Of a DNA stretch of 64,000 nucleotides, positions 6,786 through 34,104 are shown piece after piece. The number at the start of each line of letters is the position of its first letter. Positions within the stretch are counted from its first letter, which is position 1. This DNA comes from an uncultured Candidatus Saccharibacteria bacterium (lineage in GTDB: Bacteria > Patescibacteriota > Minisyncoccia > UBA6257 > CAYRSR01), in NCBI GenBank assembly GCA_964427275.1, contig CAYRSR010000003.1:168-64167 (forward strand), read 5' to 3'. Under the pieces are notes generated by a model that saw only the letters and a program-made list of their open reading frames with translations, searched no databases and was not told where the DNA came from. Position numbers and translations under genes: made by a program.

Positions 6786-7182
6786 AATCTACCTCCTTCC
6801 TTATTTTTTGTTTTTAAGTAACCTATTAAATTTATACCATGCTTTTTTTAGATTTGTCAAAGGTAAACTGCAAAAGACGAGATACATTTTTGACATCTCC
6901 AAAATGCTAGATATTGGTATAATTAGTGAAAGAAAGGGTCGAAAATCATCAAAAATTAGTCAAAATGCACCTCATCAATATAGCAAAAAGAGTATTTTCA
7001 CAATGGTGAAATTTGTTAAGAGATTTTAGATATTTGCCATTTATCAATTTTCAATTTTCAATTACCCAGAAGAATTTAACTTCAAACTATCTCGCAAGCT
7101 TTAGGATACAAAACTCCTATTGAGATAATCTGTGGAAGGAGTCAATGTCAAAAATGTACTCATCTTGTACAAGTACAAGGGT

Positions 7183-20657: not shown

Positions 20658-20842
20658 AATACTTAACTTTTTCGACCTTTAGTTTAGTAGCAATAGCTAG
20701 GTTAATTCTGCTAAACGATTATAGTTTTATCTCAATTTAATGTCAATATTTTTGAGTAACTTTTTTCAATTCAGTTCGTTTTATCTAATGGAAGCAAAAT
20801 TGAAAGTTATCCACAAGGTTGAGAATTTTTTAGTCGGACTTG

Positions 20843-20922
20843 TGGTATAATATATTAGCCGAGGGTGAGGTCTAAAAATTCGTTTTAGAGTTTTCAGTAT
20901 CTCACCTTTGGTGAGATTTTTT
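20843..20922 (+). ncRNA. candidate short transcript or attenuator: extended -10 promoter, about 65-nt RNA, intrinsic terminator
   Basis: TGgTATAAT at 20843-20851. Stem ATCTCACC / GGTGAGAT (20899-20917) followed by TTTTTT. It lies upstream of the 21057 gene. Confidence 0.3.
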
Positions 20923-21056
20923 AGTTTGAAATTAAGGTTTTAAACTAAAGGTCGAAAGTTTTGCTAGCCTGTCAGGACTTAAATTGACAGGCAAAGGTCG
21001 ATAGCAAAATTAAAACTCAAAGTCCAACTGGCTAATACCTGGTTGGACAAAAAAGA

Positions 21057-28457: not shown

Positions 28458-30293
28458 ATGTGTGGGATAGCTGGATATATTGGCAAAAGGAATGCAGTGA
28501 AGGTCATTTTAGCCGGACTGAAGAAGCTGCAATATCGTGGTTACGATTCGGTTGGAATTTCGATAATGGATGAAGGTAAAGTTAAAACTATTAAAGCAGT
28601 CGGGAAAATATCTAATTTAGAAAAAAAGCTGATTAGATTAAACCTGAAAGGAAATTTGGGAATTGGACATACTAGATGGGCTACCTGCGGAAAAGTAAAC
28701 TTAGCTAATGCTCATCCTCAATCCGATTGTTCTAGAAAAATATTTTTAGTTCACAATGGAATTGTTGAGAATTATTTAGAACTAAAAAGAAAACTAGAAA
28801 AACTGGGTCATCAATTTAGCTCTCAGACCGACACCGAAGTTTTAGCTCATTTAATTGAGGAAGAACTAATTAAAAATCCAGGGATAAAGCTAGAAAAAGC
28901 TACTGAATTAGCTTTACAAAGAGTAATTGGAACTTATGCTCTGGTAATAATTTCAGAATATCAGCCAGATAAGCTGATAGTTGCAACTTGCTCTAGTCCA
29001 TTGGTTATTGGTCTGGGAAAAAAAGAGTACTTTGTAGCTTCCGATCCTTTAGCAATTGTTTCTAGAACTAAAAAGGTTATTTATCTAAAAGATGGACATA
29101 TTGGAGTAATTACTCCCTATGGTTGCCAAATTTATTTTAAAAAGAAACTTGTTAAGCAAGATATTCATAGTTTGGATTTTGATGAACTGAAAGTTAGTAA
29201 AAAACAGTTTCCTTACTTTATGGCCAAGGAAATTTTTGAACAACCAGTTTCAATTGAGAATTCAATTACCGGGAGAATAGATTTAAAAAATTGTAATTCG
29301 AAATTAGGTGGAATAGAGGATGTACTAGATAAATTGGCTAAAATTGAACAATTAATAATTATTGGTTGTGGTTCAGCTTATCTGGCCGGGCTTTTTGGGG
29401 AGTATTTTTTAGAAGAGTATTCAAATATAAGTTGTCATTCTTATTTAGCTTCTGAATTTAGGTATCGAAATCCAGTTTTAAATCAAAACACGGCATTTTT
29501 GTTTATATCTCAATCTGGAGAAACTGCTGACACTCTGGCTGTACTCAGGGAAGTAAAGAAGAAAAATATTTTAAGCTTAGGGATAGTTAATGTAGTTGGT
29601 TCCTCAATTGCTAGAGAAACTGATGCTGGAATTTATAACCACTGTGGTCCTGAAATTGGAGTAGCTTCAACTAAGGCATTTACTTCTCAGTTGACTATTT
29701 TAATTCTTCTAGGAATTCTTTTGGGAAGACAAAGAAAGTTGTCAAAAAAAATAGCCTGCCGTATTTTAACTGAATTAAAGAATTTACCGGGCTTAATTAA
29801 GCAGGTACTTCAACAAAGCTCTTACTTAAAAAGGTTAGCTAAGAAATATTTAAAGTATGATAACTTTTTATTCATTGGGCGAAAATATAATTATCCAATT
29901 GCAATGGAAGGAGCATTAAAACTTAAAGAAATTAGCTATGTTCATGCTGAAGGTTATCCTTCTGGAGAAATGAAACATGGCCCAATAGCTATGATTGATA
30001 AAGGCTTTCCTACCGTTGCGATATGCCCAAAAGATTCGGTATATTCAAAAACTATTTCTAATATTCTGGAAATTAAGACTAGGAGTGGAAAGGTAATTGC
30101 TGTGGCTACTAAAGGAGATAGGAAAATCAAGAAAATAGTTGATGATGTAATTTATGTTCCCAAAATTTTTGAACCAATTCAACCAATTTTAGAGGTTATT
30201 CCTTTACAACTATTTGCTTATTATTTTTCAGTTTTAAAAGGATTGGATCCGGACAAACCCAGAAATTTAGCTAAATCGGTAACTGTAGAGTAA
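28458..30293 (+). CDS. glmS: glutamine--fructose-6-phosphate aminotransferase
   Basis: N-terminal nucleophile MCGIAGY and two SIS domains. Confidence 0.93.
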   Translation: MCGIAGYIGKRNAVKVILAGLKKLQYRGYDSVGISIMDEGKVKTIKAVGKISNLEKKLIRLNLKGNLGIGHTRWATCGKVNLANAHPQSDCSRKIFLVHNGIVENYLELKRKLEKLGHQFSSQTDTEVLAHLIEEELIKNPGIKLEKATELALQRVIGTYALVIISEYQPDKLIVATCSSPLVIGLGKKEYFVASDPLAIVSRTKKVIYLKDGHIGVITPYGCQIYFKKKLVKQDIHSLDFDELKVSKKQFPYFMAKEIFEQPVSIENSITGRIDLKNCNSKLGGIEDVLDKLAKIEQLIIIGCGSAYLAGLFGEYFLEEYSNISCHSYLASEFRYRNPVLNQNTAFLFISQSGETADTLAVLREVKKKNILSLGIVNVVGSSIARETDAGIYNHCGPEIGVASTKAFTSQLTILILLGILLGRQRKLSKKIACRILTELKNLPGLIKQVLQQSSYLKRLAKKYLKYDNFLFIGRKYNYPIAMEGALKLKEISYVHAEGYPSGEMKHGPIAMIDKGFPTVAICPKDSVYSKTISNILEIKTRSGKVIAVATKGDRKIKKIVDDVIYVPKIFEPIQPILEVIPLQLFAYYFSVLKGLDPDKPRNLAKSVTVE

Positions 30294-30327
30294 TTTTATA
30301 AGGAATTGCAAAGTTTTTAATTCTCAC

Positions 30328-30462
30328 TTATCCACAATCAAACCCTTGACAAACTATCTTAATTGAATAACATTAAAAATGGAGCTGGAAGGAAATCTAT
30401 TCTTCGGAATAGAGGACCAACCAGCTCCACTGGGGGACGAATCGAAAGATTTGTCCCCCATT
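30328..30462 (+). repeat. left copy of a 135-bp inverted repeat (about 97% identical to 33166..33300, reverse complement)
   Basis: Base-by-base comparison with the reverse complement of 33166-33300 shows 3-4 mismatches over 135 bp. Confidence 0.8.
30346..30373 (+). promoter_or_regulatory. promoter-like TTGACA-16-TAACAT inside the left repeat
   Basis: TTGACA at 30346-30351 and TAACAT at 30368-30373. The predicted start (about 30381) is the first base of the hairpin. Confidence 0.35.
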
Positions 30463-30465
30463 TTT
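30381..30465 (+). ncRNA. candidate structured small RNA or attenuator: UUCG-capped hairpin plus GAAA-capped intrinsic terminator
   Basis: Hairpin 1 is GGAGCTGG...CTATTC-UUCG-GAATAG...CCAGCTCC (30381-30428). Hairpin 2 is TGGGGGAC-(AATC-GAAA-GATT)-GTCCCCCA (30431-30460), followed by TTTTT. Confidence 0.3.
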
Positions 30466-30738
30466 AATTCAAGAATTGAATAGGCAACTATTTCTAATTT
30501 GCAATTTTTAATTCACAATTTTTAATTTTCAATCAATTTTCAATTTTCAATTACCAATTTATAAATTTTAACATTAAATCATTTTGAGTTTTAAATTGCC
30601 TGCCCGCCAATCGTCCGACGGCTCAAGGCGTCTGGCAGGCGGGTAATTTTTAATTTTGATATTTGAATTTTAAATTTTATTTTGTAGATTGGCATCATAC
30701 ATTGTAAATTCGTTGATAACCTTATATATTAATTTTCA

Positions 30739-30777
30739 AATGCAACGTTGTATGCAACGTTGCATACAACGTGCTAA
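30739..30777. promoter_or_regulatory. cluster of CAACGTTG palindromes (putative operator) about 80 nt upstream of recG
   Basis: ATGCAACGTTGTATGCAACGTTGCATACAACGTGC contains a perfect 12-bp palindrome TGCAACGTTGCA flanked by CAACGTTG half-sites. The whole forms a near-perfect 36-bp palindrome. Confidence 0.4.
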
Positions 30778-30854
30778 AAATTGATAGAATCTATTCCCGC
30801 TCCCTCATATTCTTAGAAATTTACTATTTAGTCAAAATCAGCTAATATAATTAA

Positions 30855-32969
30855 ATGCTTGAATTGAATACACCACTTAATCAAGTTCCAGGTTTAGGTT
30901 ATAGATTTTTAAAAAAATTTAACAAACTGAATTTAATCACAGTTAAAGATTTACTCTGGCATTTTCCTTCTAGGTACGAAGATTTTTCCAGAGTTAAAAA
31001 AATTGCCGATGTTAGAATTGGAGAACAGCTAACTATTCAGGGACAGGTGAAAACTATTTCAGCATTCAGAACTCCTAAAAAAAGAATGAAAATAGTTCAG
31101 GCATTAATCAGTGATGGTAGTGGAACCATCCAGGCTATTTGGTTTAACCAATTTTATATTCGAACTAGACTAAAAAAAGGAACTCTAGTTAACTTGGCTG
31201 GAAAAGTTAGTGTATATAAAAATAAGCTTTGTTTAAATAATCCAACTTACGAAATTCTCAAAAACAAAGTCCCAATTCACACTGCTAGAATTGTTCCAAT
31301 TTATCCTGAAACCAAAGGACTAACCTCAAAAGGAATTCGGCATTTCATTAGAAAGATTTTGATGAATCTTAAGCCAATCCCCGAATTTCTGCCAAAATTA
31401 GCCTTAGTTGAGCTTAACTTCCCAGAAATAAACAAAGCTTTATGGCAAATTCATTTCCCTGAAAATTTATCAGAAATAAATCCAGCTAAAAAAAGATTTG
31501 CATTCCAGGATTTATTTTTACTCCAATTAAACAATTTAATTGAAAGGTGGAATATCAGAAAACATAAAGCCTATCCATTCAAAATTGATTATAAACGAAT
31601 TAAGCAACTTTTAGCCAAGCTTCCGTTTCAATTAACTATTTCTCAAAAAAAATGCCTATTTCAAATTCTAAAAGACTTACAAAATGAATATCCAATGAAT
31701 CGTTTACTTCAAGGAGAAGTTGGTTCAGGAAAAACTATTTTAAGCTTTCTGGCAGCCAATGTTGTAGCTGAACAAAACCAGCAAGTTGCCCTGCTTGCAC
31801 CTACCGAAATTTTAGCATTTCAGCATTATCAAGCTTTTAAAAAATTTTTTCCTAAGTTTGAAAAAGGAGTTTGTATTTTAACTTCCAAACAAAAAAGAAT
31901 TTTTTATTCAGAAAAATTGGAATGTAAAACTACCAAAAAAGAACTATTACCTCTAATAGAATCAGGTAAAATCAAAATAGTAATTGGTACTCAAACTTTG
32001 ATCCAAAAAGAGGTTAAATTTAGTAATTTAGCTTTAGTAGTAATTGACGAACAACATAGATTTGGCGTAAAACAAAGAGCTAAATTACTTAAAGAAGGTA
32101 CTACAAATATCCCTCACTTTCTATCTATGACTGCTACTCCAATTCCCAGAACTCTAGGTTTAGCTATTTTCGGTGACCTGGATATGTCTAGAATTGAAGA
32201 ACTTCCTAAAAATCGAAAGCCAGTAATCACCAAAATAATTCCTCCAAAAAAAAGAAAACAAGCTTATTCATTTATTAGAGCTGAAATTAAGAAAGGAAAT
32301 CAGGCTTTTGTAGTTTGTCCAAGGATAGAACCCACTAATAAAGAAGCTAATAATCTAAATAGAAAAAAATTAATCTGGGCTGAAGTAAAGGCAGTAAAAG
32401 AAGAATATCAAAAGTTATCTAAAAAAATTTTTCCCGATTTAAAAGTTGAAATGCTCCATGGGAAGATGGATTCAGAGAAGAAGGAAAAGATTATAAACCG
32501 ATTTAAAGATGGAAAAATTGATATTTTAGTTTCAACTTCAGTAATTGAAGTTGGAATTGATATTCCTAACGCTACTATTATGGTAATTGAAGGGGCAGAA
32601 AGATTTGGATTAGCTCAACTTTATCAACTCAGGGGAAGAGTTGGGAGAAGAGAAAAACAATCTTATTGCTTTTTATTCAGTGATTTAGAATCAAAAACAT
32701 CCAGACAAAGACTAGAATCAATAATTAAAGCTAAAAATGCTTTTGAGTTAGCTGAGCAGGATCTGAAACTAAGAGGACCGGGTGAATTTTTAGGAGAAAG
32801 TCAAACTGGACTCCCAGATTTAGCAATGCAAGCCTTAAATAATCCAGAATTAGTAAAAGTTTCTAGAGAAATTGCAATAAAAACCTTAAAAATTGACCCA
32901 AGCTTAAAAGCTTTTCCAGAACTAAGAAAGAAAGTGATTGAGTTTTACAAAGAAGTACATCTGGAATAA
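30855..32969 (+). CDS. recG: ATP-dependent DNA helicase RecG
   Basis: Wedge domain plus SF2 helicase motifs (GEVGSGKT, DEQHRFG, YQLRGRVGR). Confidence 0.88.
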   Translation: MLELNTPLNQVPGLGYRFLKKFNKLNLITVKDLLWHFPSRYEDFSRVKKIADVRIGEQLTIQGQVKTISAFRTPKKRMKIVQALISDGSGTIQAIWFNQFYIRTRLKKGTLVNLAGKVSVYKNKLCLNNPTYEILKNKVPIHTARIVPIYPETKGLTSKGIRHFIRKILMNLKPIPEFLPKLALVELNFPEINKALWQIHFPENLSEINPAKKRFAFQDLFLLQLNNLIERWNIRKHKAYPFKIDYKRIKQLLAKLPFQLTISQKKCLFQILKDLQNEYPMNRLLQGEVGSGKTILSFLAANVVAEQNQQVALLAPTEILAFQHYQAFKKFFPKFEKGVCILTSKQKRIFYSEKLECKTTKKELLPLIESGKIKIVIGTQTLIQKEVKFSNLALVVIDEQHRFGVKQRAKLLKEGTTNIPHFLSMTATPIPRTLGLAIFGDLDMSRIEELPKNRKPVITKIIPPKKRKQAYSFIRAEIKKGNQAFVVCPRIEPTNKEANNLNRKKLIWAEVKAVKEEYQKLSKKIFPDLKVEMLHGKMDSEKKEKIINRFKDGKIDILVSTSVIEVGIDIPNATIMVIEGAERFGLAQLYQLRGRVGRREKQSYCFLFSDLESKTSRQRLESIIKAKNAFELAEQDLKLRGPGEFLGESQTGLPDLAMQALNNPELVKVSREIAIKTLKIDPSLKAFPELRKKVIEFYKEVHLE

Positions 32970-33097
32970 ATTTTCGAAATTCTTTTAAAATTAAGGATAT
33001 CGACAGTCGGTTCGATTACTGTTACTATTATTCCAGCCAATATTAGCAAAACAACTACAACTATTAACAATTCAATCAAAGTGAATCCATTCTTCAT
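32945..33097 (-). CDS. short type IV pilin-like protein (class III signal peptide), 50 aa
   Basis: Unlisted ORF MKNGFTLIELLIVVVVLLILAGIIVTVIEPTVDILNFKRISKIYSRCTSL. It has the canonical prepilin cleavage/methylation motif G|FTLIEL with Glu at +5. It overlaps the recG 3' end by 25 nt on the opposite strand. Confidence 0.5.
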   Translation of the reverse strand: MKNGFTLIELLIVVVVLLILAGIIVTVIEPTVDILNFKRISKIYSRCTSL

Positions 33098-33162
33098 TTT
33101 TAACTTTCTTATTAGTATACCACGAGATTGACAAACGATAAGTTGGTAAGCTTACTTTTATA

Positions 33163-33247
33163 AAAAATGGGGGACAAATCTTTCGATTCGTCCCCCAGTG
33201 GAGCTGGTTGGTCCTCTATTCCGAAGAATAGATTTCCTTCCAGCTCC
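33163..33247 (-). ncRNA. second (inverted) copy of the candidate structured RNA/attenuator, upstream of the pilin-like ORF
   Basis: Same two hairpins on the minus strand. The promoter-like TTGACA is at 33277-33282 (minus sense), and a U6 tract follows the terminator hairpin, about 70 nt before the pilin ATG. Confidence 0.3.
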
Positions 33248-33300
33248 ACTATTAATGTTATTCAATTAAGATAATTTGTCAAGGGTTTGATTGTGGATAA
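33166..33300 (-). repeat. right copy of the 135-bp inverted repeat
   Basis: Reverse complement of 30328-30462 with 3-4 mismatches. Confidence 0.8.
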
Positions 33301-33490
33301 CTTTTATAGGTTATCAACCAATTTGCAATATATGATGCCAATCTGCAAAAGTTAAAAATTTAAAGTGTGAAAATCAAAATGTAAAAAGGTCATCAACGAA
33401 TTTACGAATAAAAGTTAGAAATTAGAAGTTAGAAGTTGGAAGTTGATAATTGATTGAAAATTAGAAATTGAAAATTGTAAATTGAATTAT

Positions 33491-33519
33491 TTGCCACTCT
33501 TAGGTTTTTGTGCTAAAAT
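33491..33519 (+). promoter_or_regulatory. promoter TTGCCA-17-TAAAAT that ends 6 nt before the ATG (leaderless)
   Basis: TTGCCA at 33491-33496, TAAAAT at 33514-33519 and ATG at 33526. Confidence 0.45.
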
Positions 33520-33525
33520 CTAATT

Positions 33526-34104
33526 ATGATTATTCAGTGGTACGGAGAAAATTGTTTCAGATTAAAAATTGGAGATACATCAATTCTGACCGACCCTACT
33601 AATAAAAAACTAAAAGGAGATTTAACTATTTACACCTCATATCCGTTTAAGGATTTAGAAAAATTTCAGTCAGCTGGAATAATAAATTACCCCGGGGAAT
33701 ACGAATTAAAAAATATCTTTGTAACCGGGTTTTTAAATCCTGGTTCAAATCAGCAAACTATTAAGACAATTTATCAAATTTCCTGGAATAATTTTTTGAT
33801 TGGAATTTTAGGGTATTTGAAACCAAAAGAATTAAATGAATGGCAGAAGGAACTTGGTAATATTGACATCTTATTTATTCCGGTTGGTGGAAAGCCATTT
33901 ATTTCAATTGAACAAGCGGTTGAATTAGTGAAATATTTTAAACCTAAGTTGGTGATTCCTACTCTATTTAAGCAAATTAAGCAGGTTAGTTTATTTGCCA
34001 AGCAACTTGGAAAATTTAAATTAAAACCTCAACTTAAAATAGCTATAACCAGTTCAGGTTTAGAACGACAGGAATTGGAAATAGGTTGTTTAACCAAAAG
34101 CTAA
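33526..34104 (+). CDS. MBL-fold metal-dependent hydrolase (UPF0173-like)
   Basis: MIIQWYGENCFRL...TDP in the N-terminus, resembling the MKIQWLGHSCF-type hydrolase family. Confidence 0.55.
   Translation: MIIQWYGENCFRLKIGDTSILTDPTNKKLKGDLTIYTSYPFKDLEKFQSAGIINYPGEYELKNIFVTGFLNPGSNQQTIKTIYQISWNNFLIGILGYLKPKELNEWQKELGNIDILFIPVGGKPFISIEQAVELVKYFKPKLVIPTLFKQIKQVSLFAKQLGKFKLKPQLKIAITSSGLERQELEIGCLTKS

What the first reader, a model, noticed from the sequence alone, without database searches (positions are those of the whole stretch)
30346..30465. The repeat unit looks like a self-contained small-RNA or attenuator gene: promoter, UUCG hairpin, GAAA-capped intrinsic terminator
Each copy contains TTGACA-16-TAACAT. 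The predicted start falls on the first base of a long hairpin: GGAGCUGG…CUAUUC-UUCG-GAAUAG…CCAGCUCC, with a symmetric 8x8 internal loop AAGGAAAU/AGGACCAA. A second hairpin follows immediately: UGGGGGAC-(AAUC-GAAA-GAUU)-GUCCCCCA, then U5-6. Two ultra-stable tetraloops (UUCG and GNRA) in an 85-nt unit that ends in a terminator is typical of a structured sRNA, a protein-binding decoy or a transcription attenuator. It is not typical of random AT-rich spacer. The left copy follows glmS. The right copy reads on the minus strand directly into the pilin-like ORF 32945-33097.
Basis: partly seen in the sequence, partly recalled or inferred. Interest (0 to 1): 0.65.

Follow-up and report, generated by a model that had tools for sequence, protein, structure and literature searches.

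The report
Repeated small-RNA-like promoter–hairpin–terminator cassette
A ~140-base unit (promoter, very stable hairpin, terminator) occurs at least four times in one uncultured Patescibacteria population, and its transcribed part is identical in every copy while its promoter and flanks vary, so it is probably an orphan small-RNA gene family of unknown role, real but not extraordinary.

Summary
At 30328-30466 (+) and 33162-33300 (-) there are two copies of one unit. Each has a TTATCCACA box, a TTGACA-16-TAACAT promoter, a 48-nt irregular hairpin capped cUUCGg, and a 13-bp cGAAAg hairpin followed by U5-6. The fold is -51 kcal/mol (z = -8.8). The two copies are convergent and flank recG.

The unit is not confined to this locus. 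The same population carries two more copies: one between dinB and an HhH-GPD-like repair gene, and one upstream of grpE-dnaK. The grpE copy lacks hairpin 2 exactly, so hairpin 1 sits directly on the U-tract.

All 7 variable columns among the copies lie in the 53-nt promoter part. None lies in the 80 transcribed nucleotides, and the alignable flanks are only 86-91% identical. The tetraloops, a G·U pair, the U-tract and the promoter all agree on one strand. This points to selection on an RNA.

No Rfam family matches. I found no homologue outside this population, so no covariation test is possible. There are no MITE ends and no alternative antiterminator fold.

Best reading: a lineage-restricted multi-copy small-RNA cassette that also terminates and feeds neighbouring genes. 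Its function is unknown and expression is untested. Interest is moderate to low.

The parts
30328..30336 (+). TTATCCACA box, left copy. It marks the 5' edge of the conserved core, at -53..-45 from the predicted start, and is identical to the E. coli DnaA-box consensus.
   Evidence: Invariant in all 4 copies. Perfect boxes in the window: 4. The inverted-repeat arm starts here.
30346..30373 (+). Sigma-70-type promoter TTGACA-16-TAACAT, left copy.
   Evidence: 10/12, best in the region. The -35 hexamer is invariant. One copy has TAGCAT at -10.
30381..30428 (+). Hairpin 1, left copy: 8 bp, internal loops, 7 bp, cUUCGg.
   Evidence: 48/48 nt identical in 4 copies.
30431..30466 (+). Hairpin 2 (13 bp, cGAAAg, one G·U) plus U5: intrinsic terminator, left copy. 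It is also the only terminator-like site after glmS.
33292..33300 (-). TTATCCACA box, right copy.
33255..33282 (-). Promoter TTGACA-16-TAACAT, right copy.
33200..33247 (-). Hairpin 1, right copy.
33162..33197 (-). Hairpin 2 plus U6 terminator, right copy.
33308..33350 (-). Upstream segment 'C', directly abutting the right copy. It is 91% identical to 30680-30722.
   Evidence: (I3).
30680..30722 (+). Solo 'C' segment about 215 nt downstream of the left copy. It is possibly the remnant of a second unit upstream of recG.
   Evidence: The remnant reading is inference.

Best explanation
The unit is a dispersed, self-contained transcription unit, that is, a lineage-restricted multi-copy small-RNA gene.

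Proposed mechanism:
- A strong sigma-70-type promoter, preceded by a conserved TTATCCACA box at about -50, starts transcription at or next to the first base of hairpin 1.
- The RNA is a 48-nt irregular hairpin capped by cUUCGg. In three of four copies a 13-bp cGAAAg hairpin follows.
- Transcription stops at the U-tract. This gives an RNA of about 85 nt, or about 55 nt in the short variant where hairpin 1 itself abuts the U-tract.

Hairpin 1 is the selected part. Almost every nucleotide is paired: only a 2-nt linker, small purine-rich internal loops and the tetraloops are free. The RNA therefore more likely works as a protein-binding or structural RNA, or as an RNase substrate, than as a base-pairing antisense regulator.

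As a side effect each copy also terminates transcription coming from upstream (glmS on the left). By read-through it can feed the gene downstream, most clearly the HhH-GPD-like gene on L022.

Shown: the sequence anatomy, copy number, the pattern of variation and strand asymmetry. Inferred: transcription, the RNA ends and the mode of action.

Copies:
- There are four copies in four different contexts in one population. Two are in the window. One is at L022 3154-3292(-). One is at L023, L029 and L030.
- L029 and the window's own contig L001 come from the same ENA sample.
- Short-read contigs of other assemblies break inside or at the unit: L001 at window 30336, L033 at about 33235, and k141_12544 at about 30468 (coordinates). 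This is expected for a repeat.

Constraint:
- All 7 variable columns are in the 53-nt promoter part.
- None is in hairpin 1 (48 nt, 4 copies) or in the linker plus hairpin 2 (32 nt, 3 copies). P = 0.001-0.009 if changes fell at random.
- The alignable flanks are only 86-91% identical.

Strand evidence:
- cUUCGg and cGAAAg exist only on the promoter/U-tract strand.
- The G·U pair makes hairpin 2 worth -23.2 kcal/mol on the sense strand against -18.4 on the antisense strand.

Variant:
- The grpE copy lost exactly 31 nt (hairpin 2) between two CCA repeats, yet keeps a hairpin followed by U5. This is a viable RNA 3' end, but it shifts the frame of the overlapping ORF.
Against: - There are no expression data.
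- No homologue was found outside this population, so there is no covariation and no proof that the structure, rather than the sequence or a DNA palindrome, is what is kept. The scans were GTDB representatives, JGI metagenomes, viral contigs, and a covariance-model search of recG loci in three relatives.
- Identity of the cores could partly reflect recent spread or gene conversion.
- On L022 the next gene starts 18 nt after a weakened U-tract (UUUUGUUU). There the unit behaves as a promoter plus 5' leader, not as a stand-alone gene.
- Hairpin 1 alone folds equally well on both strands.
Confidence: 0.45

Rival explanations
1. The unit is a cis-acting promoter-leader cassette, a factor-dependent attenuator. 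It supplies a promoter and a promoter-proximal terminator to the gene downstream. A protein that binds hairpin 1, or a processive antiterminator, sets how much RNA polymerase reads through into recG, the pilin-like ORF, the HhH-GPD-like gene and grpE-dnaK. The short RNA is only the by-product, as with lambda PR'-tR' '6S' RNA.
For: - Every copy points at a gene on the same strand.
- On L022 the gene starts 18 nt after the U-tract with no room for another promoter, and the U-tract is weakened. The N-terminus of that protein matches its family profile, residue 51 to profile position 47.
- The neighbours have a stress or repair flavour: recG, dinB with HhH-GPD, and grpE-dnaK.
Against: - Only two of the four orientations are informative, because the other two copies sit in divergent spacers.
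- The distance to the next start codon is 388, 64, 18 and about 150 nt.
- Before recG there is a further terminator-like GC hairpin (30596-30651) and there are promoter-like sites. Before the pilin-like ORF there is an extended -10-like site. Before grpE there is a TTGACA inside a partial inverted repeat.
- No alternative antiterminator pairing exists: the MFE structure takes 75% of the ensemble.
- In the grpE copy the 'sensor' hairpin is itself the terminator.
Confidence: 0.28
2. The unit is a selfish or neutral dispersed DNA repeat (MITE-, REP- or Correia-like). Its palindromes are recognised at the DNA level, and its promoter-like and terminator-like features are incidental. Identity among copies reflects recent spread or gene conversion.
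For: - There are at least 4 near-identical copies in unrelated intergenic sites.
- Assemblies break at it.
- It was found in no other lineage.
- Hairpin 1 folds equally well on both strands.
Against: - There are no terminal inverted repeats and no consistent target duplication. The copy edges differ: the left copy starts at TTATCCACA, and the others start 9 nt earlier at CTATAAAAG. The 3' edges are right after the U-tract or about 50 nt beyond it.
- Changes avoid the transcribed part although they hit the promoter.
- Both tetraloops, the G·U pair and the U-tract are meaningful only as RNA on one strand.
- No transposase or recombinase lies next to any copy.
Confidence: 0.17
3. The unit encodes a small, possibly leaderless protein, MELEGNLFFGIEDQPAPLGDESKDLSPI..., starting at the ATG at 30379-30381.
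For: - An ATG (GTG in the right copy) sits at the predicted transcription start, and the frame stays open through both hairpins.
- On L022 it is in frame with the next gene.
Against: - No stop codon precedes the terminator.
- The C-termini differ in every copy.
- The 31-nt deletion in the grpE copy shifts the frame.
- No protein sharing even three 5-residue words with it exists among 5.8 billion proteins.
- There is no Shine-Dalgarno sequence.
- The coding region is almost fully base-paired.
Confidence: 0.03
4. The unit is a replication-origin or DnaA-titration element: DnaA boxes plus AT-rich repeats flanking recG.
For: - A perfect TTATCCACA sits at the edge of every copy.
- The spacers around the copies are AT-rich with 7-nt repeats.
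Against: - DnaA-like boxes are not enriched in the window: 20 found at up to 1 mismatch against 17.4 expected.
- Cumulative GC skew rises through 30-33 kb with no turning point.
- No dnaA or dnaN was noticed among the ORFs near the element, but only eight window ORFs were scanned against families.
- The heptamer repeats also occur elsewhere and in a relative.
Confidence: 0.03

Closest known systems
Multi-copy sibling sRNA genes with a shared upstream regulator site, such as the CiaR-dependent csRNAs of Streptococcus and the Qrr1-5 sRNAs of Vibrio (from general knowledge)
   Same: - Several near-identical copies lie in separate intergenic regions.
- Each has its own promoter preceded by a conserved box and its own intrinsic terminator.
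- The RNA is about 50-150 nt with one or two stem-loops.
- The RNA part is better conserved than the flanks.
   Different: - Those sRNAs expose a single-stranded seed that pairs with mRNAs. This RNA has almost no unpaired sequence.
- Those families are conserved across species and show covariation. This one is seen in one population only.
- The regulator of the box is unknown.
Correia elements (CREE/NEMIS) of Neisseria, and the ERIC, RUP and BOX intergenic repeats (from general knowledge)
   Same: Short intergenic repeats of about 100-150 bp that form RNA hairpins, can carry promoters, can act as terminators, and change expression of neighbouring genes.
   Different: - Those have terminal inverted repeats, a target duplication (TA for Correia) and tens to hundreds of copies.
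- This unit shows no TIR or TSD and only 4 known copies.
- Its internal order (promoter, then hairpin, then terminator) makes a closed transcription unit.
Promoter-proximal terminated transcripts used for antitermination control, such as lambda PR'-qut-tR' '6S' RNA and HK022 put RNA (from general knowledge)
   Same: A strong promoter is followed within about 100 nt by structured RNA and a strong terminator upstream of genes. put consists of two adjacent stem-loops right after the promoter.
   Different: - No phage context and no antiterminator gene were seen.
- Distances to downstream genes vary.
- No sequence or model similarity was found (Rfam scans).
Rfam RF01742 lactis-plasmid RNA, the best though insignificant Rfam match
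   Same: The overall shape is similar: an A-rich 5' end, a long hairpin with internal loops, then a second hairpin.
   Different: The score is 17.2 bits against a gathering score of 70, with E = 1.6 on a 161-nt search. This is shape resemblance only, not membership.

Membership tests
Any Rfam 15 family | Score at or above the family's gathering threshold. | tested here: not met
   The whole window at gathering thresholds gives only 8 tRNAs. Permissive scans of 30200-33600 and 30320-30480 give best scores of 10-20 bits against thresholds of 37-196. There is no SRP, 6S or tmRNA hit.
Intrinsic (Rho-independent) terminator | G+C-rich stem-loop immediately followed by a U-tract. | tested here: met
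   13 bp, 7 G-C pairs, a 4-nt loop, then T5/T6, on both copies. The energy is -23.3 kcal/mol, among the strongest of 70 candidates in the window. Termination itself was not measured.
Sigma-70-type promoter | -35 and -10 hexamers at 16-18 nt spacing, with a mapped transcription start. | tested here: inconclusive
   The consensus match is 10/12, the best in the region. tRNA genes in the window have similar sites (read output). The transcription start cannot be mapped with these tools.
Structured RNA proven by covariation | Compensatory base changes in the stems among homologues. | tested here: inconclusive
   All copies are identical in the stems. No homologue was found outside the population.
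Base-pairing sibling sRNAs (csRNA/Qrr type) | Accessible single-stranded seed region. | tested here: not met
   The MFE structure (75% of the ensemble) leaves free only a 2-nt linker, 2-3-nt internal loops and the tetraloops.
Base-pairing sibling sRNAs (csRNA/Qrr type) | Several copies, each with its own promoter and terminator and a shared upstream box. | tested here: met
   There are 4 copies. TTATCCACA, the -35 hexamer and the hairpin plus U-tract are kept in all of them.
Riboswitch or classical attenuator | Mutually exclusive terminator and antiterminator folds. | tested here: not met
   A single dominant fold is predicted, with no competing pairing for the 5' arm of hairpin 2. In the grpE copy hairpin 1 is itself the terminator.
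MITE / Correia-type repeat | Terminal inverted repeats and a target-site duplication. | tested here: not met
   The alignment of the 4 copies with their flanks shows no TIR, ragged 5' and 3' edges, and no duplication common to the copies. A TATAAAAGT on both sides is seen in the right copy only.
MITE / Correia-type repeat | Many dispersed copies per genome. | tested here: inconclusive
   4 copies were found in about 90 kb of accessible sequence, and contigs break at the unit. The complete genome is not available.
Small protein gene | Conserved reading frame with a stop codon, and homologues. | tested here: not met
   The 31-nt deletion shifts the frame. No stop codon precedes the terminator. 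No protein homologue exists.
oriC / DnaA-box cluster | Enrichment of DnaA boxes and a GC-skew turning point. | tested here: not met
   20 boxes at up to 1 mismatch against 17.4 expected. Cumulative skew rises monotonically across 30-33 kb.

The most novel reading that the evidence does not exclude
The cassette is the shared control module of a small stress regulon in a Patescibacteria lineage. The TTATCCACA box, identical to a DnaA box and placed at about -50, couples its promoter to replication status or another stress signal. A protein that binds the invariant hairpin 1 decides whether RNA polymerase stops after 55-85 nt or reads on into recG, an HhH-GPD glycosylase gene next to dinB, grpE-dnaK and a pilin-like gene. 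The same box sits at the same distance from a second promoter at 20807-20851, which precedes another terminator-like hairpin and a 200-nt structured leader.
Probability: 0.12. Interest if true: 0.6.

Novelty: new member of a known kind. Interest (0 to 1): 0.35.

Why it matters
Almost nothing is known about regulatory RNAs in Patescibacteria (CPR), which have tiny genomes and few recognisable regulators. This unit is compact and unusually clean: promoter, cUUCGg hairpin, cGAAAg terminator. Its RNA part is kept invariant in four contexts, three of them next to DNA-repair or chaperone genes. That makes it a concrete, easily testable candidate for such an RNA. It also gives a practical warning: the unit breaks short-read assemblies of this organism. 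If it proves to be only a young dispersed repeat, it is ordinary.

Tried and rejected
- **Rfam, three scans:** nothing near threshold. SRP RNA, 6S and tmRNA are rejected. I also compared hairpin 1 by eye with the SRP domain IV consensus and K-turn rules recalled from memory and saw no fit.
- **GTDB representative genomes:** scanned with the two internal-loop motifs and a free apical stem. The 18 hits are chance: L004, the only hit with the element's 40-nt span, was read and lies next to a start codon; the others were judged from span and organism, not read. The host genome itself is not in that collection.
- **JGI metagenomes:** 2 real hits (L022, L023), both from this population, and 2 chance coding hits (L020, L021).
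- **Viral contigs:** two scans, nothing found.
- **Synteny route:** the closest RecG relatives are only 58-61% identical. Their recG neighbourhoods differ, and the covariance model R1 finds nothing there.
- **Model R1 with filters off on the whole window:** only the two copies. The weak hits that could be matched to one search are ordinary terminators.
- **Translated element against 5.8 billion proteins:** used to catch copies miscalled as genes. No hit.
- **Extending the contig:** look-ups of glmS, a protein near the window's right end and an L022 protein found no record; the pheT look-up from the left end gave contig-break positions but no new copy.
- **oriC idea:** rejected on skew and box counts.
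- **LexA/SOS operator idea:** the open literature searched did not give the Patescibacteria motif, so I dropped it.
- **Order of the spacer segments:** A-B-C on the left against B-C-A on the right at first looked like a circular permutation. 'B' turned out to be a low-complexity CAATTTT heptamer repeat that also occurs at 7043-7066 and in a relative. Only 'C-A' is a real adjacency.

Full report
**1. The observation**

The window is AT-rich (about 33% G+C). Judging from RecG, it comes from a Patescibacteria (Paceibacteria-like) organism. The best named hits are Wolfe-, Colwell- and Jorgensenbacteria-type MAGs, and the closest protein is only 61% identical.

- TTGACA, 16 nt, TAACAT.
- Seven bases later, a hairpin at 30381-30428.
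- A second hairpin at 30431-30460, followed by T5.

The promoter-like site is the best in 30200-33600 on both copies, and the hairpin 2 plus T-tract is called as a terminator on both. tRNA genes in the window are preceded by TTGATT-16/17-TATAAT/TAAAAT-type sites (read from the sequences printed), so the sigma-70 consensus is a fair yardstick here.

The 86-nt RNA folds at -51.2 kcal/mol. Shuffles give -21.8 +/- 3.4, so z = -8.8. One structure takes 75% of the ensemble, and the right copy behaves the same.

The '8x8 loop' is predicted as a 2x2 loop, 2 bp and a 3x3 loop. Hairpin 2 is a continuous 13-bp stem with one G·U pair.

**2. It is a repeat, and not only here**

The unit forms a 146-nt inverted pair, 30328-30473 and 33155-33300, 96% complementary. 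The two copies are convergent and bracket recG (30855-32969).
- The left copy lies downstream of glmS, which is confirmed as glmS.
- The right copy lies between an MBL-fold gene (33526, + strand) and a 50-aa prepilin-motif ORF (32945-33097, - strand).

An independent ENA assembly contains both copies base for base.

A JGI metagenome scan with the two internal-loop motifs found two more copies.
- **L022:** a full copy sits between a divergent dinB and an HhH-GPD-like gene. That gene's ATG lies 18 nt after a weakened U-tract, UUUUGUUU.
- **L023:** a copy sits about 150 nt upstream of grpE-dnaK and lacks hairpin 2 exactly. It reads CCAGCTCCA|TTTTT, a 31-nt deletion between two CCA repeats.

The grpE copy is reproduced in two ENA assemblies (L029, L030). 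L029 comes from the same sample as the window's contig L001, so all four copies belong to one population.

In the short form, hairpin 1 is flanked by A5 and U5. Together they form a perfect 14-nt inverted repeat, AAAAATGGAGCTGG/CCAGCTCCATTTTT, which looks like a bidirectional terminator.

Contigs of other assemblies start or end inside the unit: window 30336, about 33235 and about 30468 (coordinates). This is what a repeat longer than k does to an assembly.

**3. Pattern of variation**

I aligned the four copies from the TTATCCACA box to the U-tract.
- There are 7 variable columns, and all lie in the 53-nt promoter part: two between the box and -35, one in the spacer, one just before -10, one inside -10, and two near the start.
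- None lies in hairpin 1 (48 nt, 4 copies) or in the linker plus hairpin 2 (32 nt, 3 copies).
- If changes fell at random, the chance of this is about 0.001, or 0.009 if only hairpin 1 is counted.
- The box and the -35 hexamer are invariant.

Flanking spacer segments that can still be aligned are 86-91% identical. At that divergence an unconstrained 86-nt stretch would be expected to carry several changes.

So the transcribed part is either under purifying selection or is being homogenised more tightly than its own promoter. Selection is the simpler reading.

**4. RNA or DNA?**

Hairpin 1 folds equally well on both strands, at -25.5 and -26.1 kcal/mol. The other features pick one strand, the one set by the promoter and the U-tract:
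- cUUCGg and cGAAAg are the canonical extra-stable tetraloops only on that strand. Their complements, CGAA and UUUC, are not special.
- The G·U pair makes hairpin 2 worth -23.2 kcal/mol on the sense strand against -18.4 on the antisense strand.

The hairpin-2 deletion variant keeps a hairpin-plus-U-tract 3' end but shifts the frame of the overlapping ORF, MELEGNLFFG.... That ORF has no stop before the terminator and no relative among 5.8 billion proteins. This argues for an RNA product and against a peptide.

**5. What kind of RNA element?**

- No Rfam family comes near threshold. The best match, lactis-plasmid RNA at 17 bits against 70, is shape resemblance only.
- There is no competing antiterminator fold. 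The distance to the next gene is 388, 64, 18 and about 150 nt.
- Promoter-like or terminator-like sites intervene before recG, the pilin-like ORF and grpE. A classical cis attenuator is therefore unlikely.
- A factor-dependent one is not excluded. On L022 the unit is the only visible promoter and leader of the next gene.
- There are no terminal inverted repeats and no common target duplication, and the copy edges are ragged. It is not a typical MITE.
- The RNA has almost no single-stranded sequence, which does not fit a base-pairing sRNA. A protein-binding or structural role is the better guess.
- The purine-rich symmetric internal loops (AAGGAAAU/AGGACCAA) are the obvious candidate contact surface. 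This last point is inference.

**6. Reach**

Nothing related was found in any of these:
- GTDB representative genomes (chance hits only).
- Viral contigs.
- recG loci of three relatives, searched with covariance model R1.
- The rest of the window, searched with filters off.

Because the nearest sequenced relatives are so distant, this absence says little about the age of the element.

**7. Verdict**

The most likely reading, at about 0.45, is a lineage-restricted, multi-copy small-RNA transcription unit whose hairpin 1 is the functional part. It has side effects as a terminator for upstream genes and, by read-through, as a promoter and leader for downstream ones.

The rivals are:
- A factor-dependent promoter-leader/attenuator cassette (about 0.28).
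- A DNA-level dispersed repeat (about 0.17).
- A small ORF (about 0.03).
- An origin-related element (about 0.03).

It is a new member of a known kind, an orphan sRNA or intergenic cassette. Expression and function are untested.

Noticed in passing
window 20807-21056 (+): A second perfect TTATCCACA box (20807-15) sits about 50 nt upstream of the start implied by an extended -10 promoter, TGgTATAAT (20843-51). A terminator-like hairpin follows (CUCACCUUUGGUGAGAUUUUUU). In all there is a roughly 200-nt leader with four hairpins (-76.6 kcal/mol, z = -8.2) before a 1118-aa PG-binding/Fn3 protein gene, divergent from groEL. There is no Rfam match.
   Followed up: partly
window 30596-30651 (+): A G+C-rich hairpin (-25.7 kcal/mol) followed by T5 is found only in the left spacer. 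A weak promoter-like site, TTAACA-18-TAAATT (30568-97), precedes it. It could be a second tiny transcription unit or an extra terminator ahead of recG.
   Followed up: partly
window 30741-30775 (+): There is a tandem-like TGCAACGTTGTA TGCAACGTTGCA TACAACGTGC, which includes the perfect 12-bp palindrome TGCAACGTTGCA, about 80 nt upstream of the recG start. It looks like an operator. I could not compare it with the Patescibacteria LexA motif because that paper is not in the library.
   Followed up: partly
window 30502-30580, 33406-33484, 7043-7066; L024 9680-9703: Runs of a 7-nt CAATTTT-type repeat occur in several intergenic spacers, and one 24-nt identical run occurs in a distant relative's spacer. 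This appears to be a lineage-wide low-complexity spacer feature.
   Followed up: partly
window 32945-33097 (-): A 50-aa ORF has a prepilin N-terminal methylation motif (Pfam N_methyl, E = 3e-7). It is far shorter than normal pilins and overlaps the 3' end of recG by 25 nt on the opposite strand. An extended -10-like TGgTATACT precedes it.
   Followed up: partly
window 30680-30722 and 33308-33350; also 33385-33400: The 'C' segments contain AAATT(C/G)GTTGAT(A/G)ACC motifs, whose reverse complement resembles a degenerate DnaA box. In the right copy one of them forms a GATAAC-N9-GTTATC inverted pair with the TTATCCACA box.
   Followed up: no
proteins P0030, P0031, P0075, P0089, P0103 (RecG homologues): Some Patescibacteria RecG homologues are 860-890 aa and carry a PF13366 (GxxExxY/PDDEXK_3) domain, and the window's RecG aligns to only about 60% of its own length in them. 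This suggests a fusion or an insertion.
   Followed up: no
L027 4913-8794: A 3.9-kb stretch without called genes lies in a relative's recG-containing contig. I did not examine it. It may be an rRNA or another RNA locus.
   Followed up: no
L029 9890-9960 (= L023 2330-2400, - strand): Upstream of grpE lies TTAACGCTC-TTGACAAGA-GAGTAAATT, a partial CIRCE-like inverted repeat with a TTGACA in its spacer. It is a probable HrcA-type operator and promoter of grpE-dnaK.
   Followed up: no
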